Part shown: in pieces, positions 39,498 to 58,265 of the stretch
Layout of the letters: each line of letters begins with the position of its first letter
Position numbering within the stretch: position 1 is the stretch's first letter
NCBI GenBank assembly: GCA_041650855.1
Contig: JBAZKJ010000001.1
Span: 551,078 to 615,077, forward strand
DNA: 64,000 nt
Direction of reading: 5' to 3'
From: Candidatus Margulisiibacteriota bacterium
GTDB taxonomy: Bacteria > Margulisbacteria > WOR-1 > O2-12-FULL-45-9 > XYB2-FULL-48-7
Notes under the pieces: generated by a model
Told to the model about the DNA's origin: nothing
Database searches by the model: none
Seen by the model: the letters and a program-made list of their open reading frames with translations, nothing else
Translations under genes and position numbers: made by a program

Positions 39498-42400
39498 GCC
39501 CCGATCACCGAGCAACCGCAGCCGCCGCCCCCGCCCCTGATCTCGTCGTCCCCGCCCGGCGTATCGGTATCATCGCTCGTATCGGTGTCATCGATCGTAT
39601 CCGTATCATCGATCGTGTCGGTATCGTCATAGGTGTCGGTCTCTTCGTCCGTATCGGAATCGGTGTCAATGATCCCCGGTGTAGCGGTCGCGGTGGACGA
39701 CCAGGGGCCTAAGTTGACCGGGTCGGCGTTATCGTACGCCAGGACCCGGAACTCGTATTCGTCGTGGTTGGCCAGGCCGGTGACGGTAGCGCTGGCAACA
39801 TTGCCGGCATCCGTTTCGATCCAGGCGCCGGCGGCGGCAACGTTGCGGTAAGCAACGATATACCCGGCCAGGTCGGTCAGCGGCGAACCGTCGATATTCG
39901 TTCCCGGCGGGAGCCAGCTGACGGTCGACTGGGATTCTTCTTCGCTCGTCGCCGCCACTCCGGTCGGCGCCGCCGGGGAGAGCGCATCAACGATGTCAAC
40001 CGTATATACTTCGGTCGTCATGGCATTGCTGGCAACGTCGACCGCTTCCAGGTAATATTCCAGCGCCGGCTGGACGACCGCAGGCGCGGCAATATTAGCG
40101 CTATAGCTCGATCCGGTCCCGGACATAGGCAAGCTTTGCCAGGCGGTCTCGCCGGCCGTCCGGAAATGGAGATAAACGGTATCGACCGCGGCGTTATCGG
40201 TCACTGTCGCTTCTATCGTCAGTTGTTGATATGCCTCGGCGGTGGCCGGCGGCAGGTGGTCGATCAGCGGCGCGATCGGGTCGGTAACGGTGACGGAAAG
40301 GACGTCTTGCGGGGCGCAATTCGGCTCGAGCCGGGGGTTGAGGTAACGGTCGTGGGCGACATAGTAATAATTGATCTCCTGGTTATACTGGGCGACGGCC
40401 AACGGGATATCCGCCGTCCACTCTTCGCCGGAGATATTGGCCATTTCGACATAGCTATAAGCCGACTCGGCCGCTGGCTTGTAATAGACCCTTCCCCGCA
40501 CTACCCCGGCCGGATCGCTGAACGTCGCGCCGACCGTGATCGGATAGCCGGCGATCGCGGTTGTCGATTCCGGCGCGATCGTTGGCGGGATGATGTCGCT
40601 GTTATAATTGTAAGTGCGGCGGGAATCGTGAGTAAAAAGCGGCCACGGGTTTGCTTCCGGCTCCCATTCGGCGTCGAGTTCCCACCAGTAAACGGTGGAG
40701 CCGACAGACATTCCTTCAAACCATTCCGTGACGGCGATCAAGTCGGTCCGGCAATCGCCGTCGAAGTTGCCGAGCATCATCCGGTTATGTTCTTCGAGTG
40801 AAGTGCTGATCGTCTTGGGGAAGCCGGGGAGAGAAACTCCGCCGCCGTTCCAGGCGTTGATCTGGTTCGAAGACATCGCCAGGATATCTGCCGTCCCGTC
40901 GCCGTCAACATCGCCCAGTAAAAGCTTTCCGCCGGCCGCCTTTGGCCAGCCAGGGAGAGGCGTTCCAGCCATATTATAAAGATAGGTGTTGTCGGCATTG
41001 CTGGCGGCGATTTCCAGGGCGCCATCGCCGTTGACGTCGCCGATAGCGATATTCGTTGTCTCGTGGTTCTGCGGCCATCCCGTTAGCGGGCTAAACTGGC
41101 CGTTATACCCTCTAAAGTTCGTCACCGTCCCAACAAAGTACTCATCGCTTCCGTTGCCATCCAGGTCGGCCACGGCATAAGCCCTGACCGCTTCCCCCGA
41201 CGCTAAAATATAGGGGCTGCTGGAGGAGTACGCCCCGCTACCATCAACAATGTTCAGGTAGTTATCCGCTTCCGAATTCATGCTGTAATCGAAGACGATC
41301 TCTTGTTCCCCGTTGCCGTCAAAATCGCCAATGGCGCACTGGTTAACAGGGCCGGGCGCCAACGGCCAACCGGTCAGATTAAGCCCCCCGCTGTCCAAGA
41401 AATATACCCGCCCCGCCGTCCCGGTGCTTGTCCCTGCGATTATATCGATATAATCCGGGCTATTAAGCTTACTTAAGGCCAGGCAATCATAAAAGTTTTC
41501 CCACACATTTACCGGGCTTTTTGGCCATCCGGCGCCGATTATCCCGTCGGCGCCCCAAAGATATATTTTATTCCCTGCCGGATCGGCCGACCATTGGCTG
41601 CTGATCACGTCGTTGAACAGATCGTTGTTTATGTCGCCAATGGCGATCGATTTACTGCCCGATAGAGTAGTGGCCGGCCAGGAAGCGAGCGTCGAATAAT
41701 CGCCGGCCTGGATGCTGACTTTCCCGTCGTAGCCGATCGCGATCTCCATGAATCCATCCGCGTTCATGTCCGCACGGGTCAGGTCGTAAACAACTTCTGT
41801 CTGCGTCAATGGGTACCCGCTCTTGGCCATGCTATCAACTACAAAATATGTAGTGGAGAGAGAATTGTTGCCGCTACTGTCGTAGGTCGTCAGGCGGATC
41901 GCATAGGTCCCATTATCCGGGAAGTTGATCGTCGCCAGATCGCCGTTCGCGACGGGAGTCGTCCCTCCAGCCGTCAACGTTACTCCCGTTACCGACCAAA
42001 TAGTCGGACTGGTCCCCTCGCCCCATTCCACGATATAGTAGGCAAAATCGACGCATTCCGCCCGGCCGGTGACCATTATATCGCCCGGCTCATAAGTAGC
42101 CGCGGGAATAGGCGAGAAAATGCGTGACTCGGGGTAGTTGGTCGTGTCCATCTCCGTCAGGGCGCGCGCAACGTTGATCCGCCCCCAGCCGCTGAAATAA
42201 TCCCACCCCGGCTGGTTTAGATCGTCCGCCGAACGACGGATAATGGTCTTGACCTGGGCGGGGGTCAGCACCGGGTTTTGCGCCAGGATCAGCGATGCCA
42301 GGCCGGCAACGAGCGGAGACGCGACCGAAGTCCCGTCGACCGAGATTGCGCCGCCGCCCAAATGAGTCGTATAAATATCCTGCGCGGGAGCATAAATGTC

Positions 42401-43423
42401 GACAAAGGGGCCGTTGTTATATAGGGAGCCGCCTCCCGGATCGAGCCCGCCGACCGAGATGACCCCGTTTAACGCCGCCGGATAGAACGGTTGGCTGGTC
42501 CCGTCGTTCCCGGCGCCGCCCACTATCACGCAGCCAAGCGCGATCGCATAATCGATCGTATCCTGGATGTACTCGGTGAAAAAGTACGCCCCCCAACTGC
42601 AGTTGATCACGCACGGGCCGCCAATGTTATCGGCCGCGTAGACGATGGCGTCGTAGCCGTCATTCGTCTTGATCGCCATTATCCTGGCGTACCAATCCAG
42701 CCCCGCCACCGCTTCTCCGTTGTTCCCCGTCGCCGCCGCCGCTCCGGCCACTTCCGTCCCGTGGCCGGCTGAGCCGATAATGCCCCCGCCTTCGTCATAG
42801 ATATTATTATCGCTGGAGCAAAAGTTCCAGCCGTTGATATCATCAATATAACCGTTGCCGTCGTCATCGATCCCGTTGTCCGCCGTTTCGCCGCTGTTGA
42901 CCCATAGCCGCCCCGCCAAGTCCGGATGGCTGTAATCGATACCGCTGTCGACGATCGCGATCGTGACAGACGAGGAGCCGGTCGAAATATCCCAGCCCGC
43001 CGGCGCGGAGATCTGGGGGAGGTGCCATTGGGAACCGTAATTGGTATCGTCGGGAGTGGTCGTTTTGGCGGGGATGCTGACCGGTTCCGCGTATATCACC
43101 CGCGGGTCGCGTCTCAGTTTTTCCAGCGCCTTGAGAAGATCGGCGCCCGGCGACAATTTCCAGCGGTAAATGTTGGTCAGATCGGGCAGTTTTTGTCCGG
43201 CCGCCCTTTGCAAGGCCGCCTTTTTGGGCCGGGGCTTGAATGCCCGGCGGTAACCTGCGCCGTTGTAGTCATGAGTTAGCCTGTCGGGATCGACTCCCGG
43301 CTTGAGCTTGATAATGACTTCGTCCGGCACATATTGCAGGGGCAGCAGGGCGACAGGCCAAGCCTGACCGCCCGTAACGCCTCCGGCGCCCTTAATGGCG
43401 CTGGTCGCTGCGGGATCTGACAT
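39494..43423 (-). CDS. 1309-aa subtilisin-like protease (S8) with FG-GAP/VCBS-like repeats, Fn3-like domains and acidic DT-repeat C-terminus; no N-terminal signal peptide
   Basis: S8 motifs (DSGIDYSHPDL, HGTEVAG, GTSVASP). Many 'G.DG.NDL' FG-GAP-like repeats. C-terminus is TDSDTDEETDTYDDTDTIDDTDT ... [13 protein letters not shown]. Confidence 0.85.
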   Translation of the reverse strand: MSDPAATSAIKGAGGVTGGQAWPVALLPLQYVPDEVIIKLKPGVDPDRLTHDYNGAGYRRAFKPRPKKAALQRAAGQKLPDLTNIYRWKLSPGADLLKALEKLRRDPRVIYAEPVSIPAKTTTPDDTNYGSQWHLPQISAPAGWDISTGSSSVTIAIVDSGIDYSHPDLAGRLWVNSGETADNGIDDDGNGYIDDINGWNFCSSDNNIYDEGGGIIGSAGHGTEVAGAAAATGNNGEAVAGLDWYARIMAIKTNDGYDAIVYAADNIGGPCVINCSWGAYFFTEYIQDTIDYAIALGCVIVGGAGNDGTSQPFYPAALNGVISVGGLDPGGGSLYNNGPFVDIYAPAQDIYTTHLGGGAISVDGTSVASPLVAGLASLILAQNPVLTPAQVKTIIRRSADDLNQPGWDYFSGWGRINVARALTEMDTTNYPESRIFSPIPAATYEPGDIMVTGRAECVDFAYYIVEWGEGTSPTIWSVTGVTLTAGGTTPVANGDLATINFPDNGTYAIRLTTYDSSGNNSLSTTYFVVDSMAKSGYPLTQTEVVYDLTRADMNADGFMEIAIGYDGKVSIQAGDYSTLASWPATTLSGSKSIAIGDINNDLFNDVISSQWSADPAGNKIYLWGADGIIGAGWPKSPVNVWENFYDCLALSKLNSPDYIDIIAGTSTGTAGRVYFLDSGGLNLTGWPLAPGPVNQCAIGDFDGNGEQEIVFDYSMNSEADNYLNIVDGSGAYSSSSPYILASGEAVRAYAVADLDGNGSDEYFVGTVTNFRGYNGQFSPLTGWPQNHETTNIAIGDVNGDGALEIAASNADNTYLYNMAGTPLPGWPKAAGGKLLLGDVDGDGTADILAMSSNQINAWNGGGVSLPGFPKTISTSLEEHNRMMLGNFDGDCRTDLIAVTEWFEGMSVGSTVYWWELDAEWEPEANPWPLFTHDSRRTYNYNSDIIPPTIAPESTTAIAGYPITVGATFSDPAGVVRGRVYYKPAAESAYSYVEMANISGEEWTADIPLAVAQYNQEINYYYVAHDRYLNPRLEPNCAPQDVLSVTVTDPIAPLIDHLPPATAEAYQQLTIEATVTDNAAVDTVYLHFRTAGETAWQSLPMSGTGSSYSANIAAPAVVQPALEYYLEAVDVASNAMTTEVYTVDIVDALSPAAPTGVAATSEEESQSTVSWLPPGTNIDGSPLTDLAGYIVAYRNVAAAGAWIETDAGNVASATVTGLANHDEYEFRVLAYDNADPVNLGPWSSTATATPGIIDTDSDTDEETDTYDDTDTIDDTDTIDDTDTSDDTDTPGGDDEIRGGGGGCGCSVIGA

Positions 43424-43518: not shown

Positions 43519-44706
43519 TTAGTCAACCAGCGTCATCTTCACCTTGCCAAGCAGGCGATTGTCGTCCTTGGCCAGGATGGTGCCGACGTAGATGGCGTTG
43601 CCGGCCAGGTATCCCTGGTCGCTCCGGCCATCCCATTCAACCTTGTTGACGCCGGCCGAGCCGCCTTCGCTGCCGGCCAGGCAGTTCCAGCGCTTGATCC
43701 GCATGCCGCCGACGCCGATCAGGTAAATGTCGATATTGGCGTCGGTCGACAGGGTGTACTGGATGTAGACCTTCTTCTGCTTGGAGATGCTGAACGGCGA
43801 CGGATAGGTGATCGGCGTGCCGATCAGGCGGACCGGACCGCCCATCACTTCGACCGAGGCGATCTCGGTAGCGGTCGTCGCGGCGGCGATCAGGCCGCTG
43901 GAAGTGGCTTTGACCTTGAACGAATGCTCGCCTTCGCTGAGCGCTTCTTCAAAGGTGTATTTAACGGTCATGCTGCTAACTTTCCCTTCGTCGGCTCCCG
44001 TTCCCGCCGCGTAAACCGTGGAAGCGACGTTGGCGGCGGTCAGGGAGAGCGTCCTCGCGGTCGCCGTTCCCTCGTCGACAACGATCGAGTGCGATTCGAT
44101 GTTCCGGGCCAGGGTGAACGGGCTGTCCATCCCCATTTCCACCTTGATGTCCGGGGTGCTGGAAATAACGAACTTCTCTCCCTTGGCGACCAGCACTTTT
44201 TGGTAGAGGCGGTTGCCGAACCAGATCTTGATCCGCGGGGCCGGCTCGCCGCCGACTTCGGTCGTGACGACTATGGCCAGGCCCTTCCCTTTGGCCAGGA
44301 TCAGCGTCCCCGAGGCGAGGTCGAGCCCCGCGCCGGTGATCTTGACGCTGACCGGGTCTGATCCGTAGCCGTTGGCCGGGTCGCTCGGGTTGTCGTTGGG
44401 AATGGAAACATAGTATGTTTCGCCGACCGTCAGCGAGCTGAATTTAAGCCCGTAGGTATTTAACATATACTGCCCGGTGGCCTTGGCGACCCCGGCCAGC
44501 CCGATCTTATCGAAAGAGTATTTCCCGGCCATCGCTTCATCGGCTGTTTTGTAAAAAATGACGTAGCGCCCTTCCACCGTCTTGCCGTCTTCGGAATCCT
44601 GCGCTCCGCCCTTTACCCAATATTGCGGATAGAACGGCAGGGTGTACGCGACTACCGCCGCCGCCGCTATCAACGCTATTAACAGTCCGATGTAAGCTCT
44701 TTTCAT
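43519..44706 (-). CDS. secreted surface-operon protein: N-terminal CarboxypepD_reg-like (YWVKG) module, Ig-like middle, T9SS-type/FlgD-Ig-like C-terminal domain
   Basis: Signal peptide. PFYPQYWVKG ... VIFYK module shared with the genes at 46771 and 49493. C-terminal YPSPFS ... VEWDGRSDQGYLAGNAIYV ... KMTLVD. SD GGGAAGGAA. Confidence 0.8.
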   Translation of the reverse strand: MKRAYIGLLIALIAAAAVVAYTLPFYPQYWVKGGAQDSEDGKTVEGRYVIFYKTADEAMAGKYSFDKIGLAGVAKATGQYMLNTYGLKFSSLTVGETYYVSIPNDNPSDPANGYGSDPVSVKITGAGLDLASGTLILAKGKGLAIVVTTEVGGEPAPRIKIWFGNRLYQKVLVAKGEKFVISSTPDIKVEMGMDSPFTLARNIESHSIVVDEGTATARTLSLTAANVASTVYAAGTGADEGKVSSMTVKYTFEEALSEGEHSFKVKATSSGLIAAATTATEIASVEVMGGPVRLIGTPITYPSPFSISKQKKVYIQYTLSTDANIDIYLIGVGGMRIKRWNCLAGSEGGSAGVNKVEWDGRSDQGYLAGNAIYVGTILAKDDNRLLGKVKMTLVD

Positions 44707-44716
44707 TATTCCTTCC

Positions 44717-46750
44717 CTAAGGGAGAGTTAAGGTAAAGTCCTCGTTCACGAACACCTGGTATCCTTCGCCCGCGGTGACCAAGAAGTCGGTCCCCTCGCC
44801 GGCCGGGGTCCAGCCGAGCGCCGTGCCGGTGGTCCTGTCCCATTTACCGACGACAATAACGACGCTCTTCCCCGCCTTGGCGTTGATCACGTTGATCAGC
44901 TGGCTCGCGTTGGTGACGGTCGCGCCGGTCGCTTCCTTCAAGCCGCTCGGAATGGTGATCGAGTTGACGATCAGTTTATCCGTGGCCGAGGCCTTGAGCG
45001 GGAAGGTCATACTGCCGCTGCCGCCGGGCACTACGCGGCCGCCGGACAGCACGCCGCCGGAGAACTGGTGCCCGGCAATGGAGGCGGCGCTGGTCGGATC
45101 GAGCGCCGTGCCGGCATTGTAGGCGAACGCCTTAAAGTAGTAGATCGTCCCCCCGGTCGTGTCGAGCGTCTCGCCGGCGAAGTTCGCCAGCGGCGCTTCG
45201 GTCAGCAATCCCGCCTCGGCCGGCGTCGGCCCCGGCTGGTTCAATACCATCTTGGCGATCGCCGGGTTATCCAGGTGCGAGGTTGTCGTCAGGTCCGCCC
45301 AAGCCCCCAGGCTGGTGGTGCCGATGATCAGCGCGCCGCCAAAGAACGCTTCGGGCGGGTTATTCCAGCGGAAAGCTAGCCCGCTGGACGAGGCAAGTGA
45401 AAGGAAGTTCTTCAGCGCGGTCGGGGCCACGCCCGGCGCGGCCGACTTTTGCGTCGCTGCCGACCAGTTGTTCCCCTGCTCTCTCGGCGGGCCGGCAACC
45501 GCCCGGTCGTAAGCATACAGGGCATAATAATAAACCTTGCCGTTCGTCAGGCCGTTGTCGACGTAGCTGGTCCCGGTCCCTTTATAAATAACGACCGCGT
45601 TCGCGTCGCCGGGCGGGTTCGCGCCGACCGCCGGGGCCGGTGTTCCGTCGCTATTGCCGCTGGCGTTGCTGAAAGTCGGCGCCGGCATGCCGGTTTCTTT
45701 TCTCAGCAAGATAACGCCGCCCAGATCGGGGGCGCCCGGGTTCGTCCAGGAGATCGTCAGCTTCTTGTCGGCGGCGGCGATCGCCATGCCGGTCGGCGCG
45801 CCCGGCGCGGTGTAGTCGTGCGGCGTCGCCGATAACTGGGTAGTATTCGCTTCTTCGTTCCGGGTCGGCAAACAATCGTCCAGGCCGTGCGCGGTAAAAT
45901 AATAGGTCGTACAATCGCTCAGCTGTTCCATGGCCGTCCCCGGGATCCCGGTATCCGGACCGTTGGTGTAGGCGGAGGCGTTGATCGCCGAACCGTTAAC
46001 CTTGCTCCCCAGCGTGCCCGAGGCTTCGCTCCGGTATAAGTTGTAGCGGAGTTTGGTGCCGGAAGCGTAGATCGTTTCGGCGTTCTCTTTCTTGTCGTTG
46101 GCCGCCGCTTCGTTCGCCGCCCAACCGAGGGAGACCGTGTTTCCCTTGGTCGTGTCGGCCGCGGTGTTGAGCCCAACAAAGTTCGGCACCTTGGACGCCT
46201 CTAAGTGGATGGTGGTATCGGTCGCGTCGACCGGGTCGACGATGCTGCCGGTAACCGCGGTCCCCGACTGCACGACTGAGACGTTGTTCACCCGGTCGGT
46301 CATGGTGAAGCGGATATAGTAGGTCTCGCTGCCGACCGTCGCCCCCTGGTTAACGTGGAAGCTGATCGTTGCCAGCGTTTTGCTGGCGCCGGCCGCGACC
46401 GCCAGCGGCACCTTGCCGGAGGCCGGATCGGTCTTCAGCTGATAGCGGATCGAGCCCGGCGTGGCGACATTGTTTTCGGAGACGACAAAGTTCGCCGAGT
46501 TCGCCTGGGTGACCGCGATGGACGCTTGCTCCAGAATGTTGCTTTCGTAATCGATGTAGAGCTTGGCGGCGTCGACATTGACAGCCGCGCCGGTGTTGTT
46601 GGTGTAAATGACGTTGACTGTGCCGGTGGCGCCGACCTCAACATAGCGGTATTCGGCCCGGCCGACGTACGGCGCGGAGAACTCGAGCTTGGCGGCGGCG
46701 GCTGTCGCGAGCACCCCTCCTATTAGCAAAAATATTAAGGCTTTTTTCAT
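44717..46750 (-). CDS. secreted surface-operon protein: cohesin-like N-domain, Fn3 domain, shared C-terminal module
   Basis: 677 aa with signal peptide. Residues 20-170 follow the cohesin pattern (LYIDYES ... SIRYQL ... TISFHV). Fn3 in the middle (LTISWTNP ... YYYALYAYD). C-terminal LINVINAKAG ... VGKWD ... GEGYQVFV. Confidence 0.8.
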   Translation of the reverse strand: MKKALIFLLIGGVLATAAAAKLEFSAPYVGRAEYRYVEVGATGTVNVIYTNNTGAAVNVDAAKLYIDYESNILEQASIAVTQANSANFVVSENNVATPGSIRYQLKTDPASGKVPLAVAAGASKTLATISFHVNQGATVGSETYYIRFTMTDRVNNVSVVQSGTAVTGSIVDPVDATDTTIHLEASKVPNFVGLNTAADTTKGNTVSLGWAANEAAANDKKENAETIYASGTKLRYNLYRSEASGTLGSKVNGSAINASAYTNGPDTGIPGTAMEQLSDCTTYYFTAHGLDDCLPTRNEEANTTQLSATPHDYTAPGAPTGMAIAAADKKLTISWTNPGAPDLGGVILLRKETGMPAPTFSNASGNSDGTPAPAVGANPPGDANAVVIYKGTGTSYVDNGLTNGKVYYYALYAYDRAVAGPPREQGNNWSAATQKSAAPGVAPTALKNFLSLASSSGLAFRWNNPPEAFFGGALIIGTTSLGAWADLTTTSHLDNPAIAKMVLNQPGPTPAEAGLLTEAPLANFAGETLDTTGGTIYYFKAFAYNAGTALDPTSAASIAGHQFSGGVLSGGRVVPGGSGSMTFPLKASATDKLIVNSITIPSGLKEATGATVTNASQLINVINAKAGKSVVIVVGKWDRTTGTALGWTPAGEGTDFLVTAGEGYQVFVNEDFTLTLP

Positions 46751-46770
46751 GTTCCTCTTGCTCCTCCTTT

Positions 46771-48225
46771 TTATGGCGTGACCGCCGGCACATAGCCGTG
46801 CGGGCCAGGATCGTTCAGTTCCAGGGCCAGGTTATTAAATGAACCGTACCACCAGCTCGTGTCGATGACGTCGACCAGGCCGTTCTGGTCCAGATCGGAC
46901 CGAATGAACGGATCGGCCGGGTCGTCCTCGCCGGTGGCGTTAAATCTGGTGAACAGGCGATACCAGTGCGAGGTATCGACCACGTCGATGTAATTGTTGC
47001 CGTCCATGTCGCCGGCCCGCAGCATCGTCCGGCCATTGGCCGTGACCAGCGCCGGCGGCTTGCCGGACGGCGCGTAGCAGGTTTCGTTATAAACTCTGGT
47101 CGCCGGGTCGTCGATCACCAGCGTATCGCCGGTCAATTCGAGGCGGGTCGTCGACGCCGCCGTATCCGCGCCGGTGTACAGCGTGATCTTCCGGCTGGTG
47201 ATCGCGGAAAGGTGCCCGATGCCGACCAGTGTCGGCGTTAACCACTGCTTGACCGCCAGGTAATAGTCGCCGTTGGGGAGCGGCGCGACGGCGCCGAACT
47301 CTGTCCCGTCCGGCTTCAGGAAGCCGTTCATCCCGGTCGTGTTGCCGCTCTGGTCGAGAATGACGTCGGCGTAACCGACGATCGTCGTCGCCGTATCGGG
47401 CGACACGCCGGACCGCGCTTCGATCCGGACATATTTCGGCGCCGCGTGGCTAAAGGTCGTCGCGTTGGCCAGCGCCTGGAAGAGAAGTGTCGGCTTGATC
47501 TGCGGCCCGTAAGCGATGATCTGGATCGCGTAAGTGACCGACAAGGTCAGGTTCGCTTCCACGAACTGGCCGGTGGCGTCGGTCACCCTGATCGTGATGT
47601 TATAGGTGCCGGCGGTCGACGGCGTTCCGCTGATCAAGCCGTTGGAAGTATTAAGCGTAATACCCGGCGGCAGGTCGCCCGAAGTAATCGACCAGGTCAG
47701 CGGGTCGGTCCCGCCTTCGGCGGAAACGATCGCGCTATACGGCTGGCCGACGGTCGCGTTCGGCAAGGCCGAGATCGTGATGTGGAGGCTGATCTCCGGA
47801 TCGGTCACCCCTTCGCCGGCCGCCAGCGCAAGCAAGTCGGCGGCCAGGTTCTTATAGCCGTTATTCAAGTCGGCCGTGCTGATAATGACATCTTTCTGGT
47901 TGACGCCGAATCCGCCCTTGTTGACCACCCCGATAAAGTAAGTCGTGGTCGACAAGGGAAGCATTCTCAGGTCGTCCATGGCGTTGATCTTGAACTGACC
48001 GTAAATATCGGTGGTCGCGTCGGCGTAAGCCGCGGCGGTATCGCCGGTCACTTTGTAGAATATGACCTTGAACCCGGAAAGGTCGGTTAAACCGCTGGCG
48101 CCGGCATTGACCACCCCGTTCACCCAGTAGGCGGCCGGGTACGGCGCCAGCTGCTGCGCGGCGAAAACGCTCCCCGCCAGCAGGGCCGCCGTGATCAATA
48201 TTGCCGTTAGTAACTTACGCGCCAT
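46771..48225 (-). CDS. secreted surface-operon protein: CarboxypepD_reg-like N-module, putative Ig domain, C-terminal type-I-like dockerin
   Basis: Signal peptide plus the PYPAAYWVNG ... KVIFYK module. PPGITLNTSNGLISGTPSTAGTYNITIRVTD Ig-like domain. C-terminal duplicated Ca-binding loops DMDGNNYIDVVD and DLDQNGLVDVID. Confidence 0.8.
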   Translation of the reverse strand: MARKLLTAILITAALLAGSVFAAQQLAPYPAAYWVNGVVNAGASGLTDLSGFKVIFYKVTGDTAAAYADATTDIYGQFKINAMDDLRMLPLSTTTYFIGVVNKGGFGVNQKDVIISTADLNNGYKNLAADLLALAAGEGVTDPEISLHITISALPNATVGQPYSAIVSAEGGTDPLTWSITSGDLPPGITLNTSNGLISGTPSTAGTYNITIRVTDATGQFVEANLTLSVTYAIQIIAYGPQIKPTLLFQALANATTFSHAAPKYVRIEARSGVSPDTATTIVGYADVILDQSGNTTGMNGFLKPDGTEFGAVAPLPNGDYYLAVKQWLTPTLVGIGHLSAITSRKITLYTGADTAASTTRLELTGDTLVIDDPATRVYNETCYAPSGKPPALVTANGRTMLRAGDMDGNNYIDVVDTSHWYRLFTRFNATGEDDPADPFIRSDLDQNGLVDVIDTSWWYGSFNNLALELNDPGPHGYVPAVTP

Positions 48226-48239
48226 GGTTCTCCTTCTGT

Positions 48240-49460
48240 TTATTTGTACCCGGTCAGCGTCATGGTAAAGGCGTCTTTGTCGACGCTAACTTGATACGGC
48301 CGGTCCTGGACGATCGAAGCCGCCAATATGTTCGCGACCGAATCTCCTGTGGCGACAGTCAGACCGGTATCGATCGCCGTTCCGGAGTAGCTGATCGCCG
48401 TCAGACCGACGTGCTTCTGGGTGTCGGCGTCGTACCAGCCGAACACTTTAACCGTTTGCTGCGCGGCCTTTTCGTTGATCTTTTCGATCAGCGCCTGGAC
48501 GGTCAGCGTTTTCGGCGCGCCGGTGGTTATTTCCGTCGTGCCATCCCAGATCCCGCTCGACGCGGTGAACGGAATAGAGAGCGTGTTGATGCCGGACGAC
48601 GGCCTCTTAAAGTACCAGGTAACGGGCACCAGGGTGGGACCGCCGGTCCCGCCGGTTAAAGTGGTCCACGCCGGATCGAGCGGAGCGCCGACCGTTGAGC
48701 CGAACCAGTTATAGGCCTTGGGGACAAATTGGTATGTTCCGGCAATGACCAGCGGGTCGGTGCTCGTGGAAAGGACCAGCGTGCCATTCGTGTATTTTGT
48801 CGCCGTCCCGCCCGCGCCCGGATAGGTCACATCTATTGAATATTTAGTCGTGCCTGGCGAAACCGCTGCAGTTTGGATCACTTTAGGCGTTGTTTCGCTG
48901 CAAACAACCGGGACTGTCAGCGTCAGAAACTGGTTCGTTGTGCTGCCGTCCCTTTGCGACGCTTCAACGACCGAGCCGATCGTCGGGGCGTTCGGCGCTT
49001 CTTCGAAATAATTTGCCGAAAAGTTCTTGAGCCACTGCATTGAAGAAGCGATGTTCGAGCCCAAGGCTAATGTTTGCGTCACGGTCTTATCGTCGCTATA
49101 ACCCTGCGTGCCGTACCCGTATTTCCCGCCGGCTTTGTATCTTACTGTAATATTGATCAAATTTTCGGCAAAATAGAACCGGTTAAACGCCGGCTTCCCT
49201 CCAGCCGCCGGGAGTTCATCGATCGTTCCATAAGGAACAAGCGGCGTCCCGTCCTGGTCGGGCGTCGGCAAGCTGGCGGAATTATAAAACTTCAACTCGC
49301 CTGCCAGATAAGCCGCTTTTGGGTCGCTGACCCCGGTGATGGTGCAGTCCGGCGAGCCGATGCTTTTTTCGATCTTAATATATCCTGACGCAAAGGCTGC
49401 TCCCGCCAGCAATAACACCAGCAGTGCAGTCAACCCTCCTTTGATATTGAAATTTTTCAT
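48240..49460 (-). CDS. secreted surface-operon protein with shared C-terminal module
   Basis: Start placed at MKNFNIKGG (SD GGAGGGAG 5 nt upstream). The MEGDNM start in the ORF track is a translation of the SD. C-terminal LIEKINEKAAQQTVKVFGWYD module. Confidence 0.75.
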   Translation of the reverse strand: MKNFNIKGGLTALLVLLLAGAAFASGYIKIEKSIGSPDCTITGVSDPKAAYLAGELKFYNSASLPTPDQDGTPLVPYGTIDELPAAGGKPAFNRFYFAENLINITVRYKAGGKYGYGTQGYSDDKTVTQTLALGSNIASSMQWLKNFSANYFEEAPNAPTIGSVVEASQRDGSTTNQFLTLTVPVVCSETTPKVIQTAAVSPGTTKYSIDVTYPGAGGTATKYTNGTLVLSTSTDPLVIAGTYQFVPKAYNWFGSTVGAPLDPAWTTLTGGTGGPTLVPVTWYFKRPSSGINTLSIPFTASSGIWDGTTEITTGAPKTLTVQALIEKINEKAAQQTVKVFGWYDADTQKHVGLTAISYSGTAIDTGLTVATGDSVANILAASIVQDRPYQVSVDKDAFTMTLTGYK

Positions 49461-49492
49461 ATTATCTCCCTCCATTAATTTATCACTACCTT

Positions 49493-51079
49493 CTAAGGCC
49501 TCGGCGCGTTCCAGTCGATTGGATCGGCATCCAGCTTGTGATAGTACCAGTATCCCTTCCCAATTTCGATCGGCGTATCAGCCCAGGCCGGATCGATCTT
49601 GGAAACAGGGATCAACCCGATTCCATCCCACTTTTGGATCACATCTTCATCTGTCGGGCCCGTGCCTAGCCCAAAGTTGTCAACAATATAATTGATCGGG
49701 TAAGGAGCCGCAATCAGGTTAAAGCTACCTCTGATCTGGCTGCTAAAGTCTGTGTTCTTGACCACTCCAACCATGCGCAATGCTCGCGGGTCTGCCCCAG
49801 TTCCGTCGGTTAATGGCCGGTAGACCCACAATCCCTTACCAAGCGTTATCTCGAAGGGCGGAGTTCCCCAGCCACCCGCCGTATCATTGTAGGAAGCCGG
49901 ATCCAACATCCAGTTGTTCGGATTAAAATCGGTCGTTTTCCATGACTGGATGATGCTTTCGTTCGGCAATTGTGCGCCAACAATATTAGGTATGCTTCCA
50001 TCAATGTGGTTGTTATCGGGCGAGCCGGACGGCGTCGTCGGGTAGAACGGCACGCCGACCAAGTTAAAGCCTTTGGCGAGATCCCATGTATACTTGACCG
50101 CGGTGATGGAGTTCTCCGAGTCTGCCATCCGGAGCGCCGGGTCGGAGGTGGTGACGACGCGGTAATACCGGATCGGCACGGCGGCGTCGGTGATGAGCTT
50201 AGATGTTACTCCGGCGACTTCCGAACCGAGGTTAACGCTGTAATCATCCGGGTTCGTAGAGAACGGCCCGCCGTCCTTGGCATAAATATGAATGGTATAT
50301 CCGGCCGGCGTATCGTAATCCCAGTGGAGGATCACGTTGCCGTTCGTCATCCTTTCGATCCAGGTCTTCCGGACCTTGCCGGTGTCGGCATTGCCGCCGA
50401 CGCTTAACCGGAAGCCGACCCAGGTAACGTTATTGGCGGTAACCGCCGCCGTCTTATTGACCGTGCCGTAGCTCGCCTTGGAACAGGCCAGCGCGTAAGA
50501 TCCCGGATCGAAATTGTCCAGCAAATAGGCGCCGCTGGTGTCGGAGGTATCGGAGGCGCCGGTATTGGCGATAATGGTCGCGCCCGCTACCACCGCCCCG
50601 ACTTCGTCGGTCACGATGCCGGCGATCTGGCCTTTGCCCGCCTGCGGCCCGCCGCCATTGATCAGCGTCAAGCCGGTAGTAATATAACCTTTGGACCAGT
50701 CAACCGTGCAGATCTCCGACGAACCGTAGTTGTTCGTAACGCCGCCCCAGTCCCTGACCACGGCGACGTTGAACACCGGCTTGCCGCCGATCTCCATATA
50801 GTTGTCGTCCTTGTGGTAAAAGAAGAGGTCATAGGCGTTAAAGTAGAACACGCCGCCGGTCCCCACTTCCGCCGTCACGACTTTGGTGCTGTCGAAAGTC
50901 GTGGCGTAAAGAATGACCGGGCGGCCGGCTAATTGGCCGCTCGGGTCGTTGACCGTCCCCTTGACCCAGTAGAACGGCATGGTGCCGGCTTGCGGCGCCG
51001 GCCAAACTGCCGCCGCGGCGCCGGCGAATATCGCCAGTCCGAGCAGCAGCAGTGTCAGTATCTTGATCCGTTTAAACAA
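49493..51079 (-). CDS. secreted surface-operon protein: CarboxypepD_reg-like N-module (x2) and shared C-terminal module
   Basis: TTG start with SD AAAGGGGAA. MPFYWVKGTVNDPSGQLAGRPVILY N-module. Second CarboxypepD_reg-like segment AGATIIANTGASDTSDTSGAYLLDNFDPGSY. C-terminal IEIGKGYWYY. Confidence 0.75.
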   Translation of the reverse strand: MFKRIKILTLLLLGLAIFAGAAAAVWPAPQAGTMPFYWVKGTVNDPSGQLAGRPVILYATTFDSTKVVTAEVGTGGVFYFNAYDLFFYHKDDNYMEIGGKPVFNVAVVRDWGGVTNNYGSSEICTVDWSKGYITTGLTLINGGGPQAGKGQIAGIVTDEVGAVVAGATIIANTGASDTSDTSGAYLLDNFDPGSYALACSKASYGTVNKTAAVTANNVTWVGFRLSVGGNADTGKVRKTWIERMTNGNVILHWDYDTPAGYTIHIYAKDGGPFSTNPDDYSVNLGSEVAGVTSKLITDAAVPIRYYRVVTTSDPALRMADSENSITAVKYTWDLAKGFNLVGVPFYPTTPSGSPDNNHIDGSIPNIVGAQLPNESIIQSWKTTDFNPNNWMLDPASYNDTAGGWGTPPFEITLGKGLWVYRPLTDGTGADPRALRMVGVVKNTDFSSQIRGSFNLIAAPYPINYIVDNFGLGTGPTDEDVIQKWDGIGLIPVSKIDPAWADTPIEIGKGYWYYHKLDADPIDWNAPRP

Positions 51080-51100
51080 AAATTTCCCCTTTGTTATCGC

Positions 51101-52393
51101 CTATTGGCTATTCTTTAAAACGAACTCGATCTTGGCCGGCGGCGCCGTGACCCCGTCCGCGTTGACCGTGCCGATATAGAACTGCGCGCCCATCCCCTCT
51201 TTAAGCGGCGAGGCCTTCAATGCCGCCGCAGCCGAAGAAGCGTCCGGATCGTTCAATGGCAGCAGTACATAGCTCGGCGTCTGGGTCGTTGCCAGCCAGC
51301 TGCCGACCGTGGAAACAACCTTATTCCCGGCCGCAGTGTTAATGACCTTGACCAGGTCGTAAGCCATTTTGACTTCATTTGTCGTGCTGCCGTCATAATT
51401 GGTAAAGTTGAGCGCCGCGCCCAGTTTATCGTACGCGAACCACGGCCCCGGCGACGGCATAGCGATAAAGTTCATCCCCGCGCCGAGCGGTGCCTGCGAT
51501 TCCAGCGTGATAACGTACGTGCCGGAGCCCGCGCCGCCGAACTTCGTGGTGAACGTGTAGGTGTTCGGGGCCGCGCTCGGACCGAACGCGTTCCAGCCGG
51601 TGGTCAGCAGGGTGTAGGTCGTTCCCGCCGTGAGCGCCAGGTTGTCCGGGGCCGCGGCGATCCGGCCGATCAGCTTGGTCGCCGGCGTGCTCGCGTGCGG
51701 CAGGGCGGAGAAACCGACCACTTCCAGCGACATGCCGCTGTAGGAATAATTGGTGTCATAGCCGAGCGTCAGGAACGCTTCACCCATGCTGACGTTCACC
51801 TGGTTAACAACGCCGCCGGTCGAATTGGTCACGGTCGGGGCCGGCGGTGCGCCTGCCGTCTTTTCGGTCCCGCCCAGGGTCCAGCTGGCGCCGACAATCA
51901 GGCCGAACGCGGTCGCGTCGGCCGGGACGGAATACGCCGTCAGGATCGAGTATCTGATAGTGCTCCAAACCACGGGGACGATCTTTTTGCCCAGCACCAG
52001 GTTATCTATGTCAACGTCGAGCCCGCTGCCAAAGTTGACGCTGGTCGTTGGCCCGGTCATGACCTTCAGGTTCGTCCCGTCATATTGGCAAGTAAAGGAG
52101 ATCGCCGGCGAATAGACGGTCGTGCCGACCTTGGCCAGTTTCGGCACCGTAATGTCGGTGGAGATCGCCGTGCCGTCGATCATCGGCTTGATGAAGCCGG
52201 CAATGATGTCGCTTTCGCCCCAGCCGGCCGGCACTTGCAGTACTATGATGTCCCGGTTTTGCAGAGCCGTCGTTAAAGAGAGCGATCCCTGTCTGAGCTG
52301 CATCGACATGCTTTCCGCGTTGGCGACGGAGCATAACAAGATCAAGCTTAAGGCCAGCAACCCACCTTTCACCAAAAATTTACTTACTCTCAT
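51101..52393 (-). CDS. secreted surface-operon protein with shared C-terminal module
   Basis: Signal peptide (MRVSKFLVKGGLLALSLILLCSVANA). SD AAGGGGGAA. C-terminal LVKVINTAAGNKVVSTVGSW ... GMGAQFYIG. Confidence 0.75.
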   Translation of the reverse strand: MRVSKFLVKGGLLALSLILLCSVANAESMSMQLRQGSLSLTTALQNRDIIVLQVPAGWGESDIIAGFIKPMIDGTAISTDITVPKLAKVGTTVYSPAISFTCQYDGTNLKVMTGPTTSVNFGSGLDVDIDNLVLGKKIVPVVWSTIRYSILTAYSVPADATAFGLIVGASWTLGGTEKTAGAPPAPTVTNSTGGVVNQVNVSMGEAFLTLGYDTNYSYSGMSLEVVGFSALPHASTPATKLIGRIAAAPDNLALTAGTTYTLLTTGWNAFGPSAAPNTYTFTTKFGGAGSGTYVITLESQAPLGAGMNFIAMPSPGPWFAYDKLGAALNFTNYDGSTTNEVKMAYDLVKVINTAAGNKVVSTVGSWLATTQTPSYVLLPLNDPDASSAAAALKASPLKEGMGAQFYIGTVNADGVTAPPAKIEFVLKNSQ

Positions 52394-56360: not shown

Positions 56361-58265
56361 TTAGTATGTGTCCCAGTTCAAGAGGTCTTTCTTCAAGACC
56401 TGCTGCACGTAATCGGTGCGATAGAGCATCTCCACCGTTTCCGCTCTGGTCAATTGCTTGTTCGGCTCAAAGTTCAGCCCTTTCAGATACTGCAAGATAT
56501 TAACTTTATTGCTCCCGGCGATGATCTTGGCCGCCCAGTGGTTGCCGGCGACGTCCGGGAAGTCGCGGGCGTAGGTCTCTTCGCTGACGCCGGCAAAGCG
56601 GGCGATCATTGCCAGCCCTTCGGCGCGGGTGATCTTGCCGTTCGGTTTAAAGACGTTGCCGGGGTAGCCCTTGACGACGCCGAGCGCCGCCGCTTCCGCG
56701 ACGAACGCGCTGGCCCAGTGCTTCCCGGGGACGTCCTTGAACGCCGCCGCCGTTAACGCCGCCTCTGCCGTCGACGCGTTCTGTTTCCTGGTCTTCATCA
56801 GTAGTGAGCACATTTCGGCGCGGGAAATGCCGCCCTCCGGCTTGAACGTGCCGTCGGGATAACCGGTGATGATGTTCTGCATCGCCAGGAGCGAGATCGG
56901 CTTGTCAACCCAGTAGCCGATGACAACGTCCGGGAAGGTCGTTAAGCGGAGCAGGCGGACCTTGGACGAGCCGACCAGCTTGCCCCGGTCGTCGCTGCCG
57001 GCCAGGATGATGCCGTTCTTGCCGATCTTCAGTTCCACCTCGGTCGAGATGTCCCCCTTCAGGTTCATCTTGACCGGCTGGCCGTTGATCGTGGCGGTGC
57101 GGATCCGGCTGTTCGCCGCGTGCGCGTGGACCCGCGTCGCGCCGGCAAACGTGATCGTCTTGTCATCGGGCGAAGTAAAGGTGAATGGGTCCTTGCTGCT
57201 CTCAACGGCCGGCGGCAGGTAGTTGTAAGAGAGCGAGAAGAAATGGTTGTCGATATTCGGCGCGCCGGCGAAAGCGTGGTAGGCGTAGTCGAACCGGAAC
57301 CCGCCGAAATACATGCCGACGCCGTAAGTCGGATCGGAATAAGTCGTCAGGCCGCCGTTGCCGTCGCCGCCGGCATCCTGGTCGATACCGGCCCGGATCG
57401 CCAGGATCGAGACCGGCTTCCATTCCGCGCCCAAATGCATGACCGGCGGATACCCGGCCAGCGAAGGATGGAGGTCGATGTCGGTCATGATCTTGAGCTC
57501 GTGGTCCCCGTATTTCGCCAGCGCTTTATCTTTGCCGAGCACGGAAAAGGCGGCGCCGGTCTCGATCACCGCCGGGTACGATTCTTCGTGGCCGCCGGAG
57601 TATGTCAGTTTGCCGCCCAGGCCGGCGGGGAGAGCGTTTTGCACCGCCATACCGAGCGCTAGCCAGCGCAGCGGCGTGTATTTGATGCCGAAGTCGAGCT
57701 CCTGGCCGGAGGCGTCGCCGTTCTGGATCCCGTCGCCGTAGAGGCGCGCCCGGAATAATTTAACACTGGTGCCGAGCGTGATCTTGTCCGCTTGCGGGAC
57801 CTGTTTGACGTAAGGGATCTTGTCCGCTTTGTTGCCGTAAGAGAAGACCATGGCGGCGTTGTCGTTCCCCATGGTCGGCTGGCTCGGGTCGATCGTGTAG
57901 ATCGGATCGGCCGGGTCGGACCCCGCTTCGATCGTGGTGGCGAACGCCCCGGCGATCGAGGTCCCGGCGTAACCAAAACCGAAAACGCCGTACTCGGTCG
58001 GATATAAGCCGGAAAAAGAGAGATAGCTGTATTCGTCGAGGAATTTACCGGACATAGAAGACAATTGCCACCCGGAAACGTCGCCCATGCCGGCCGGGTT
58101 GGTGTACATCGCGCCGGTATCGTCGGCCAGGGCGATATACGCTTTACCAAGCCCCAGGACGCGGCCGTTCGGTACGTATCTCGTCGGGTCTTGCGCGACA
58201 TACTGGGCGCAGGCAACGCCCGCCAGTAAAACGGCGGCCACTATGGCGGTTAATATTCGTTTCAT
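56361..58265 (-). CDS. outer-membrane FadL/OmpP1/PorV-like beta-barrel with three C-terminal SLH domains
   Basis: Signal peptide. N-terminus LGLGKAYIALADDTGAMYTNPAGM matches the FadL signature ([25 protein letters not shown]). Three C-terminal SLH repeats (GYPDGTFKPEGGISRAE, GYPGNVFKPNGKITRAE, ... NKQLTRAE). Confidence 0.8.
   Translation of the reverse strand: MKRILTAIVAAVLLAGVACAQYVAQDPTRYVPNGRVLGLGKAYIALADDTGAMYTNPAGMGDVSGWQLSSMSGKFLDEYSYLSFSGLYPTEYGVFGFGYAGTSIAGAFATTIEAGSDPADPIYTIDPSQPTMGNDNAAMVFSYGNKADKIPYVKQVPQADKITLGTSVKLFRARLYGDGIQNGDASGQELDFGIKYTPLRWLALGMAVQNALPAGLGGKLTYSGGHEESYPAVIETGAAFSVLGKDKALAKYGDHELKIMTDIDLHPSLAGYPPVMHLGAEWKPVSILAIRAGIDQDAGGDGNGGLTTYSDPTYGVGMYFGGFRFDYAYHAFAGAPNIDNHFFSLSYNYLPPAVESSKDPFTFTSPDDKTITFAGATRVHAHAANSRIRTATINGQPVKMNLKGDISTEVELKIGKNGIILAGSDDRGKLVGSSKVRLLRLTTFPDVVIGYWVDKPISLLAMQNIITGYPDGTFKPEGGISRAEMCSLLMKTRKQNASTAEAALTAAAFKDVPGKHWASAFVAEAAALGVVKGYPGNVFKPNGKITRAEGLAMIARFAGVSEETYARDFPDVAGNHWAAKIIAGSNKVNILQYLKGLNFEPNKQLTRAETVEMLYRTDYVQQVLKKDLLNWDTY

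What the first reader, a model, noticed from the sequence alone, without database searches (positions are those of the whole stretch)
46240..46693. Cohesin-like domain in the gene immediately downstream of the dockerin protein
Residues 20-170 of the 677-aa protein follow the cohesin beta-sandwich pattern (LYIDYESNILEQASIAV ... PGSIRYQL ... TLATISFHV). They are followed by an Fn3 domain and the shared C-terminal module. Cohesin and dockerin encoded in adjacent genes is the hallmark of scaffoldin-type assemblies.
Basis: inference. Interest (0 to 1): 0.6.

Follow-up and report, generated by a model that had tools for sequence, protein, structure and literature searches.

The report
Cohesin–dockerin joint in surface-protein operon
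The start of this secreted 677-residue protein from an uncultured Margulisiibacteriota bacterium really is a divergent cohesin fold. It sits directly after a gene ending in a dockerin-like module, but the pair looks like a one-to-one joint between two non-enzymatic surface proteins in a conserved operon of head-to-tail connector modules, not an enzyme-carrying scaffoldin.

Summary
Residues 21-170 of the 677-aa protein (window 44717-46750, minus strand) match Pfam Cohesin over nearly the whole profile, but below threshold (18.7 bits against 24.1). Three homologues pass the threshold. An AlphaFold2 model (pLDDT 90.8) finds cohesins only as its 41 best PDB neighbours.

The upstream 484-aa protein ends in a duplicated calcium-loop module. 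Its own sequence misses Pfam Dockerin_1, but its orthologues hit it above threshold.

Dockerin gene followed by cohesin gene recurs in 8 diverged loci from Margulisiibacteriota and WOR-1 relatives. The "scaffoldin" reading is only partly supported. The 64-kb window holds one cohesin and one dockerin. No enzyme or carbohydrate-binding module is involved. Some relatives have the cohesin protein with no dockerin gene nearby.

A second junction type emerged. Every gene ending in a shared C-terminal module (no structural neighbour found in the two libraries available) is followed by a gene starting with a shared N-terminal module, at 19 of 19 junctions. Six relatives are covalent fusions that lack both modules.

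Best reading: a collinear, non-covalent chain of structural surface proteins, with cohesin–dockerin as one joint. No binding has been shown.

The parts
44717..46750 (-). Gene g677: 677-aa secreted protein. Order: signal peptide, cohesin-like domain, about three Fn3-like repeats, shared C-terminal module. NCBI MFA5113232.1, annotated 'hypothetical protein'.
   Evidence: ORF; SD before ATG; exact match in public MAG.
46691..46750 (-). Signal peptide, residues 1-20 (MKKALIFLLIGGVLATAAAA|K).
   Evidence: Read directly from the sequence. An N-terminal signal-like segment is conserved in all 28 family members.
46241..46690 (-). Cohesin-like beta-sandwich domain, residues 21-170 (the finding itself).
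   Evidence: Pfam Cohesin 18.7 bits, profile 11-137/139; family members above threshold; AF2 pLDDT 90.8; top 41 Foldseek PDB hits are cohesins.
45056..46177 (-). Fn3-like region, residues about 192-565, probably three repeats.
   Evidence: Weak fn3 hit E=0.46; 3 of 20 family members hit fn3, best 6.2e-6; distant hits P0006, P0008 and P0009 carry fn3-type Pfam families.
44720..45028 (-). Shared C-terminal module ('Cmod'), residues about 575-677.
   Evidence: Profile hits to g411 and g430. AF2 pLDDT 87.9. No significant neighbour in PDB (best E=0.29) or BFVD (best E=0.18). No PDB sequence match better than E=0.056.
46771..48225 (-). Gene g484: 484-aa secreted protein. Order: shared N-terminal module, He_PIG Ig domain, middle domain, C-terminal dockerin-like module.
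   Evidence: ORF; He_PIG E=4.6e-17; homologues.
46774..47061 (-). Dockerin-like module of g484, residues about 389-484, ending in a conserved tail GPHGYVP.
   Evidence: Own sequence hits only EF-hand models weakly. Four of 9 orthologous C-termini hit Dockerin_1, best 2.2e-8. L005 orthologue scores 24.4 bits against a cut-off of 22.9. P0045 carries precomputed PF00404. The family profile hits PDB dockerins 2ccl_B, 8ajy_B, 1ohz_B and 5nrm_B at E=0.01-0.03, among calmodulins.
46975..47010 (-). First Ca2+-binding loop, DMDGNNYIDVVD (g484 residues 406-417).
   Evidence: Regex and sequence.
46861..46896 (-). Second Ca2+-binding loop, DLDQNGLVDVID (g484 residues 444-455). The 20 residues from each loop start share 11 identities.
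47776..48162 (-). Shared N-terminal module ('Nmod') of g484, residues about 22-150.
   Evidence: A profile from g484 orthologues also hits g528 (E=2.7e-19) and g395 (E=1.7e-12).
43519..44706 (-). Gene g395: 395-aa secreted protein. Nmod (residues about 4-143), then a core ending in a FlgD_ig-like domain. In some relatives the core is fused directly to the cohesin protein.
48243..48626 (-). Cmod copy at the C-terminus of g411 (gene 48240-49475).
   Evidence: E=5e-19; 3.3e-31 with the clean profile.
51104..51538 (-). Cmod copy at the C-terminus of g430 (gene 51101-52393).
   Evidence: E=3.5e-12; 4.5e-29.
50639..51007 (-). Nmod copy at the N-terminus of g528 (gene 49493-51079).
   Evidence: E=2.7e-19.
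56361..58265 (-). Gene g634: SLH-domain protein of the same operon, a candidate cell-wall anchor.
   Evidence: SLH E=1.6e-31. NCBI name 'S-layer homology domain-containing protein'. Syntenic in L002 and L009.

Best explanation
g677 is a Sec-exported, non-enzymatic surface protein of a Candidatus Margulisiibacteriota bacterium. Its first domain is a divergent, non-cellulosomal cohesin.

The gene immediately upstream (g484) encodes another exported structural protein that ends in a divergent dockerin, a duplicated Ca2+-binding F-hand. The most likely mechanism is that the C-terminal dockerin of g484 binds the N-terminal cohesin of g677 in a Ca2+-dependent, roughly 1:1 complex. This would join the two proteins end to end outside the cell.

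The same operon uses a second, undescribed junction. The C-terminal module (Cmod) of one gene product probably docks onto the N-terminal module (Nmod) of the product of the next gene: g430 to g528, g411 to g484, g677 to g395. Together these joints would give a collinear chain g411-g484-g677-g395, a fibril or S-layer-associated appendage. An SLH protein and trimeric fibre-like proteins are encoded alongside.

Shown: the fold, family-level homology, module sharing, gene order and the fusions. Inferred: all physical binding, the stoichiometry, and the cellular location and role.
For: - Cohesin fold and homology.
- Dockerin-type module: two canonical Ca2+ loops with internal duplication. Orthologues score above the Dockerin_1 threshold. 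PDB dockerins are hit by the family profile.
- The dockerin-then-cohesin gene order holds in 8 loci whose proteins share only about 30-60% identity: window, L002, L007, L009 (WOR-1 genome GCA_001771365.1), L010, L014, L016, L017.
- The window holds exactly one of each module.
- Genes are co-directional with gaps of 6-27 nt.
- Cmod is followed by Nmod at 19 of 19 evaluable junctions in 9 loci. L016 shows perfect alternation over 8 genes.
- Rosetta-stone fusions: six family representatives (P0019, P0024, P0026, P0027, P0034, and a shorter match in P0015) join cohesin-Fn3 directly to the g395 core. They lack both Cmod and Nmod.
- All partners carry signal peptides and no catalytic Pfam domains.
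Against:
- The window's own sequences are below the Pfam thresholds: Cohesin 18.7 bits against 24.1, and no Dockerin_1 hit at all.
- The dockerin profile also hits calmodulins at similar E-values, so a generic EF-hand pair is not excluded by sequence.
- Five loci have the cohesin protein with no dockerin gene within the fetched flanks. Two are of the split type (L006, L015). Three are stand-alone fusion genes among housekeeping genes (L011, L012, L013).
- In L005 the gene after the most canonical dockerin has an N-terminal domain that neither the family profile nor Pfam recognises as cohesin.
- The Cmod/Nmod alternation could also arise from tandem duplication of a two-gene cassette, without direct binding.
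- The loci are phylogenetically related, not independent.
Confidence: 0.6

Rival explanations
1. Scaffoldin-type hub. The g677 cohesin recruits several dockerin-bearing proteins, possibly enzymes, that are encoded elsewhere in the genome. The adjacent g484 is only one client.
For: Cohesin and dockerin modules are both present and adjacent. An SLH protein is encoded in the same operon, as in anchoring systems of cellulosomes. Only 64 kb of a contig of at least 951 kb was visible, so other dockerins cannot be excluded.
Against: - There is a single cohesin per protein and per window.
- The only dockerin is on a non-catalytic protein.
- No CAZyme or CBM Pfam hit occurs in the operon.
- The SLH protein carries no cohesin.
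- The strict one-dockerin, one-cohesin gene order across 8 loci points to a dedicated pair.
Confidence: 0.13
2. The cohesin-like domain is only a structural beta-sandwich, acting as a spacer or glycan-binding module. The dockerin-like module is only a Ca2+-stabilised EF-hand pair. They do not bind each other, and the adjacency reflects shared operon membership.
For: - Both window sequences are below the Pfam thresholds.
- Cohesin proteins exist without an adjacent dockerin gene (L006, L015, L011, L012, L013).
- The cohesin fold resembles CBM3-type sandwiches (2xfg_B, E=5e-3).
- Calmodulins score like dockerins against the profile.
Against: - The first 41 structural neighbours are all cohesins, ahead of any CBM.
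- The dockerin shows the characteristic internal duplication, and Dockerin_1 is hit above threshold in orthologues.
- The C-terminal-dockerin then N-terminal-cohesin junction is kept in 8 diverged loci. It parallels the Cmod-then-Nmod junction, for which fusions argue for physical coupling.
Confidence: 0.22
3. Chance resemblance: there is no real cohesin-like domain.
For: The full-length protein gives no Pfam Cohesin hit. A profile search of PDB sequences finds nothing.
Against: The Pfam alignment is nearly full length. Thirteen of 28 homologues hit Cohesin and three pass the gathering score. A high-confidence model has exclusively cohesin neighbours at the top.
Confidence: 0.02

Closest known systems
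Cellulosomal cohesin–dockerin pairs (type I and II; e.g. Clostridium thermocellum CipA/SdbA, Acetivibrio cellulolyticus ScaA/ScaB, C. acetobutylicum CaCohA2: PDB 6kgd, 5nrm, 3kcp, 2b59, 1aoh)
   Same: The beta-sandwich fold is the same; these are the best structural neighbours. The partner has a duplicated Ca2+-loop module at a C-terminus. An SLH protein is encoded nearby.
   Different: There is one cohesin, not a tandem array. The dockerin is on a non-enzymatic Ig-domain protein. No CBM or glycoside hydrolase is present. The host is a diderm (LpxB, LpxC and an LpxA-type acyltransferase domain in the window) candidate-phylum bacterium. Helix positions 10-11 of the loops are V-V and V-I, not the Ser-Thr pair typical of C. 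thermocellum (from the sequence; the comparison rests on my own knowledge). Sequence identity to solved cohesins is only 12-20%.
Non-cellulosomal cohesin- and dockerin-like modules (Peer et al. 2009 FEMS Microbiol Lett 291:1, cited in PMC10066038 and PMC5244752; structures 2xdh from Archaeoglobus fulgidus; 2jh2, 2vo8 and 2w1n from Clostridium perfringens glycoside hydrolases)
   Same: The modules occur outside any cellulose-degrading context. The function of such proteins is stated to be unknown (PMC5244752) or guessed to be adhesion (PMC10066038). The cohesin followed by Fn3 mirrors the C. perfringens GH84C cohesin-FN3 construct 2w1n (rank 38).
   Different: Here both partners are non-enzymatic and encoded in adjacent genes in a fixed C-terminus to N-terminus order. 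They are embedded in an operon with a second, unrelated junction-module pair. Neither Margulisiibacteriota nor WOR-1 appeared with cohesin or dockerin in the papers found.
Collinear head-to-tail assemblies: the phage T4 long tail fibre (gp34-gp35-gp36-gp37) and PKS/NRPS docking domains. This is an analogy from my own knowledge, not tested here.
   Same: The C-terminal element of one gene product pairs with the N-terminal element of the product of the next gene, so gene order matches assembly order. Covalent fusions replace the joint in relatives.
   Different: No sequence or fold relationship was found. Cmod has no structural neighbour in PDB or BFVD. The proteins here are Sec-exported cell-surface proteins, not virion or cytoplasmic megasynthase components.

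Membership tests
Cohesin (Pfam PF00963) | Nine-stranded beta-sandwich (jelly-roll) cohesin fold | tested here: met
   AF2 pLDDT 90.8, with about 10 strands between residues 36 and 166. Foldseek PDB ranks 1-41 are all cohesins, best E=2.2e-6. The strand topology itself was not inspected, because coordinates are not returned.
Cohesin (Pfam PF00963) | The window protein's own sequence scores at or above the Pfam gathering score (24.1 bits) | tested here: not met
   18.7 bits, E=0.0021, although the alignment spans profile 11-137 of 139. No hit when the full-length protein is scanned.
Cohesin (Pfam PF00963) | Homologous family linked to the profile by members above threshold | tested here: met
   P0022 30.3 bits, P0014 26.0 bits, P0011 25.2 bits. 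Thirteen of 28 members hit at E<=1. These members match the window domain at E=1e-9 to 1e-45.
Cohesin (Pfam PF00963) | Binds a dockerin (Ca2+-dependent) | not testable with these tools
The indirect evidence is conserved adjacency.
Dockerin (Pfam PF00404 Dockerin_1) | Two duplicated segments of about 22 residues, each a 12-residue Ca2+ loop (D-x-D/N-x-D/N-...-D) plus a helix | tested here: met
   DMDGNNYIDVVDTSHWYRLF and DLDQNGLVDVIDTSWWYGSF lie 38 residues apart and share 11 of 20 identities. The motif is conserved in 9 orthologues.
Dockerin (Pfam PF00404 Dockerin_1) | The window protein's own sequence scores at or above the gathering score (22.9 bits) | tested here: not met
   No Dockerin_1 hit even at E<=10. 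Only EF-hand_8, EF-hand_7 and EF-hand_1 hit weakly.
Dockerin (Pfam PF00404 Dockerin_1) | Orthologues linked to the profile above threshold | tested here: met
   L005 orthologue 24.4 bits as the full protein and 28.3 bits as the isolated module. Four of 9 C-termini hit, best 2.2e-8. P0045 carries precomputed PF00404.
Scaffoldin / cellulosome | Several cohesins on one polypeptide | tested here: not met
   One cohesin-like domain in g677 and in the whole window. There is one per protein in all 24 family representatives scanned.
Scaffoldin / cellulosome | Dockerins borne by carbohydrate-active enzymes; CBM on the scaffoldin | tested here: not met
   The only dockerin is on a He_PIG Ig-domain protein. 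No GH or CBM family appears among the 17 neighbouring proteins scanned. Genes outside the window were not visible.
Scaffoldin / cellulosome | Cell-surface anchoring through an SLH-bearing cohesin protein | tested here: inconclusive
   An SLH protein (g634) is in the operon and syntenic in relatives, but it has no cohesin-like domain.

The most novel reading that the evidence does not exclude
The operon encodes a previously undescribed kind of collinear extracellular assembly line. The C-terminal module of each gene product docks non-covalently onto the N-terminal module of the next gene's product. Two orthogonal joint types are used: a divergent dockerin:cohesin pair, and a new Cmod:Nmod pair. 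The Cmod fold has no solved or viral-predicted neighbour. The result would be a defined hetero-oligomeric surface fibril in Margulisiibacteriota and Saganbacteria.
Probability: 0.35. Interest if true: 0.75.

Novelty: new variant of a known kind. Interest (0 to 1): 0.55.

Why it matters
Non-cellulosomal cohesin and dockerin modules are widespread, but their function is stated to be unknown (PMC5244752). This case has a clean genetic context: one dockerin, one cohesin, adjacent genes, a fixed C-terminus to N-terminus order, and non-enzymatic partners. That makes it a simple, directly testable model for what such pairs do outside cellulosomes.

The accompanying Cmod/Nmod junction, if it is a real binding pair, would be a new orthogonal protein-docking system. 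It would also give a first view of how a sibling lineage of Cyanobacteria builds its cell surface. Every one of these proteins is currently annotated 'hypothetical'.

Tried and rejected
- PDB sequence searches with the full protein and with the cohesin-domain profile found nothing useful. Only fold comparison showed the relationship.
- All-against-all BLASTP of the operon proteins missed the shared modules. Profiles were needed.
The 6-sequence alignment gave only 2 loci.
- The third homologous-protein search, with the cohesin-domain alignment, returned a single protein and was wasted.
The last structure job then went to Cmod, so the dockerin fold was not modelled.
- The idea that the C-terminal regions of g528 and g407 are divergent Cmod copies (motifs such as GFNLVGVPF and GKGYWYY) was not supported. 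hhalign probabilities were 9% and 0.2%.
- The N-terminal domains of L005, P0005 and P0007, in the cohesin position, gave no Pfam or family-profile match. Whether they are cohesins is open.
- Promoter and terminator scans were at the chance level.
- P0021, a 1368-aa repeat protein that hit residues 75-121 eight times, was set aside as a repeat match and not treated as a family member.
- Peer et al. 2009 (PMC3035643) is not held and could not be read.
Full report
**What is there**

The finding lies in a 677-aa ORF on the minus strand, 44717-46750. A strong Shine-Dalgarno sequence (AAAGGAGGAG) lies about 10 nt before its ATG, and the ORF starts 20 nt after the stop codon of the upstream gene. Residues 1-20 are a typical signal peptide.

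The window comes from a Candidatus Margulisiibacteriota MAG. The protein is NCBI MFA5113232.1, annotated 'hypothetical protein', and was called there with a later start that cuts the signal peptide. The window also encodes LpxB, LpxC and a protein with an LpxA-type acyltransferase domain, so the organism is a diderm.

**Is it a cohesin?**

- Scanned whole, the protein gives no Pfam hit of note.
- Scanned alone, the N-terminal domain hits Pfam Cohesin (PF00963) at E=0.0021 and 18.7 bits. This is below the 24.1-bit gathering score, but the alignment covers profile positions 11-137 of 139.
- An exhaustive HMMER search of 1.8 billion representatives found 27 relatives of the domain. Nearly all are proteins of about 700 aa with the same position after a signal peptide.
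- Thirteen of 28 family domains hit Cohesin. Three pass the gathering score: P0022 at 30.3 bits, P0014 at 26.0 and P0011 at 25.2.
- An AlphaFold2 model of residues 21-191 built on the 28-sequence alignment is confident (pLDDT 90.8, pTM 0.86) and all-beta.
- Foldseek against the PDB returns cohesin modules only at ranks 1-41. They include type I, type II, C. perfringens and Archaeoglobus cohesins. The best is 6kgd_A at E=2.2e-6. The first non-cohesin appears at E=4e-3.

By its own sequence the window copy is a sub-threshold, divergent member. It is tied to the family by fold and by above-threshold homologues.

**Is the neighbour a dockerin protein?**

The upstream gene g484 (46771-48225) has a signal peptide, an N-terminal module, a He_PIG Ig domain (E=4.6e-17) and a C-terminal segment. 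That segment holds two canonical 12-residue Ca2+ loops, DMDGNNYIDVVD and DLDQNGLVDVID. Each loop is followed by a similar helix-forming stretch, and the two 20-residue stretches share 11 identities.

Its own sequence does not hit Dockerin_1; only weak EF-hand matches appear. Its orthologues do hit it:

- The Margulisiibacteriota L005 orthologue scores 24.4 bits against a cut-off of 22.9.
- Four of 9 aligned C-termini hit Dockerin_1, best 2.2e-8.
- P0045 carries a precomputed PF00404 assignment.

The family profile also finds PDB dockerins (2ccl_B, 8ajy_B, 1ohz_B, 5nrm_B) at E=0.01-0.03, but calmodulins score similarly. I read it as a divergent dockerin-type module.

**Context and conservation**

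Ten co-directional genes (60260 down to 43519) are separated by 6-27 nt. All those examined carry signal peptides and none has a catalytic Pfam domain. They include:

- a BNR/Ycf48-like propeller;
- an SLH protein;
- a fibre-like protein with a Peptidase_S74 chaperone domain;
- a series of proteins without annotation.

Family-specific profiles find exactly one cohesin-like and one dockerin-like module in the whole 64-kb window. The paired Ca2+-loop motif occurs only in g484.

I fetched related loci from metagenomes and MAGs, including a WOR-1 (Saganbacteria) genome, and mapped modules with local profiles.

| Situation | Loci |
|---|---|
| Gene ending in the dockerin immediately followed by the gene starting with the cohesin | window, L002, L007, L009, L010, L014, L016, L017 (8 loci) |
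| Cohesin gene present, no dockerin gene adjacent (split type) | L006, L015 |
| Stand-alone fused cohesin proteins among housekeeping genes | L011, L012, L013 |
| Most canonical dockerin followed by an N-terminal domain not recognised as cohesin | L005 |

**A second junction type**

A profile of the last ~110 residues of g677 homologues hits the C-termini of g411 (E=5e-19) and g430 (E=3.5e-12).

Independently, a profile of the first ~130 mature residues of g484 orthologues hits the N-termini of g528 (E=2.7e-19) and g395 (E=1.7e-12).

In transcription order the operon reads:

- g430: ends in Cmod
- g528: starts with Nmod
- g411: ends in Cmod
- g484: starts with Nmod, ends in the dockerin
- g677: starts with the cohesin, ends in Cmod
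- g395: starts with Nmod

Across 9 loci, every gene ending in Cmod is followed at once by a gene beginning with Nmod, at 19 of 19 junctions. L016 shows this alternation over eight genes.

Six family representatives (P0019, P0024, P0026, P0027, P0034, and a shorter match in P0015) are covalent fusions of cohesin-Fn3 to the core of g395. Matches to that core are as strong as E=5.8e-73. These fusions lack both Cmod and Nmod, with E above 0.2 against clean profiles. This is a classical Rosetta-stone argument that Cmod of g677 and Nmod of g395 together substitute for a peptide bond.

The Cmod model is confident (pLDDT 87.9). It has no significant neighbour in the PDB (best E=0.29, TM at most 0.31) or among viral predicted structures. 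Neither the Cmod nor the Nmod profile matches PDB sequences.

**Most likely mechanism**

At each gene boundary a C-terminal module of the upstream product meets an N-terminal module of the downstream product. One such pair is dockerin then cohesin, a pair known elsewhere to bind tightly in a Ca2+-dependent way (established cellulosome biochemistry). By position, the other is Cmod then Nmod.

I infer a collinear, non-covalent chain g411-g484-g677-g395 plus a g430-g528 pair. This would form a structural surface fibril or S-layer-associated appendage, with the SLH protein as a possible anchor.

Shown: fold, homology, module sharing, gene order and fusions. Inferred: every physical contact, the stoichiometry and the role. 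My estimates are about 0.6-0.65 that this cohesin binds the adjacent dockerin, and about 0.5 that Cmod binds Nmod directly. Tandem duplication of a two-gene cassette is the main alternative for the alternation.

**Comparison with the known**

It works like a cohesin-dockerin joint, but it fails the defining features of a scaffoldin or cellulosome. It has one cohesin, no dockerin-bearing enzymes, no CBM, and an SLH protein without a cohesin.

It belongs with the non-cellulosomal cohesin- and dockerin-like modules. These are known to be widespread, and their function is stated to be unknown (PMC5244752; PMC10066038; both cite Peer et al. 2009). The cohesin-Fn3 arrangement recalls the C. perfringens GH84C construct 2w1n. 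No paper found links these modules to Margulisbacteria or Saganbacteria.

**Verdict**

The cohesin-dockerin pair itself is a new member of a known kind. The fixed collinear junction logic with a second, structurally unmatched module pair makes the whole a new variant. Interest is moderate (0.55). It would be higher if the head-to-tail assembly is demonstrated.

Noticed in passing
window 43519-52393 (six genes); also L002, L005, L006, L007, L009, L015, L016, L017: Strict alternation of genes ending in a shared C-terminal module (Cmod) and genes starting with a shared N-terminal module (Nmod). Cmod is followed by Nmod at 19 of 19 junctions.
   Followed up: yes
Proteins P0019, P0024, P0026, P0027, P0034 (and P0015); loci L011, L012, L013: Natural fusions join cohesin-Fn3 directly to the core of the g395 family and lack both Cmod and Nmod. 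They are encoded as stand-alone genes next to mutS, pheST and similar genes, with no dockerin gene nearby.
   Followed up: yes
[not shown]
   Followed up: partly
window 46774-46800 (extreme C-terminus of g484): The dockerin-like module is followed by a conserved terminal tail, D-P-G-P-H-G-Y-V-P. Variants are GKHGYVP, GPHTYVP and GDHVYVP in 8 of 9 orthologues; L005 lacks it. Its role is unknown; it might take part in the joint.
   Followed up: no
L006 9896-12199: In a locus with no adjacent dockerin gene, the cohesin-like domain is split by an insertion of about 45 residues rich in proline (…KEKLPPSFGPPAGTPMETPTGKPALPDSYPSQPIEISPVMPAPPPPRS…).
   Followed up: no
L005 7890-11163 (Margulisiibacteriota MAG JAHJBW010000144.1): The orthologue with the most canonical dockerin (Pfam 24.4 bits) is followed by a 762-aa protein. 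Its N-terminal domain of about 170 residues, in the cohesin position, is recognised by neither the family profile nor Pfam.
   Followed up: partly
window 39494-43423 (-): A 1309-aa subtilase (Peptidase_S8) lies just downstream of the operon. It has six FG-GAP-like repeats and an Fn3 domain. It ends in an acidic Asp/Thr-rich repeat (…DTDSDTDEETDTYDDTDTIDDTDTIDDTDTSDDTDT…) and a Gly/Cys tail, [13 protein letters not shown].
   Followed up: no
window 53657-56335 (-); L002 13377-17831: An 892-aa protein carries a Peptidase_S74 (endosialidase intramolecular chaperone) domain at residues 789-846, typical of trimeric fibre or tailspike proteins. The related locus L002 has two such proteins with weak YadA_head hits.
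   Followed up: no
window 46715-46750: The NCBI record calls this protein 12 residues shorter (665 aa), which removes part of the signal peptide. The ATG at 46750 with its Shine-Dalgarno sequence is the better start.
   Followed up: yes
L009 8653-15279 (WOR-1 genome GCA_001771365.1): In the WOR-1 relative the module operon is flanked, on the opposite strand, by the BNR-propeller and SLH genes. These are followed by the flagellar export genes FlhA (FHIPEP) and FlhB (Bac_export_2).
   Followed up: no
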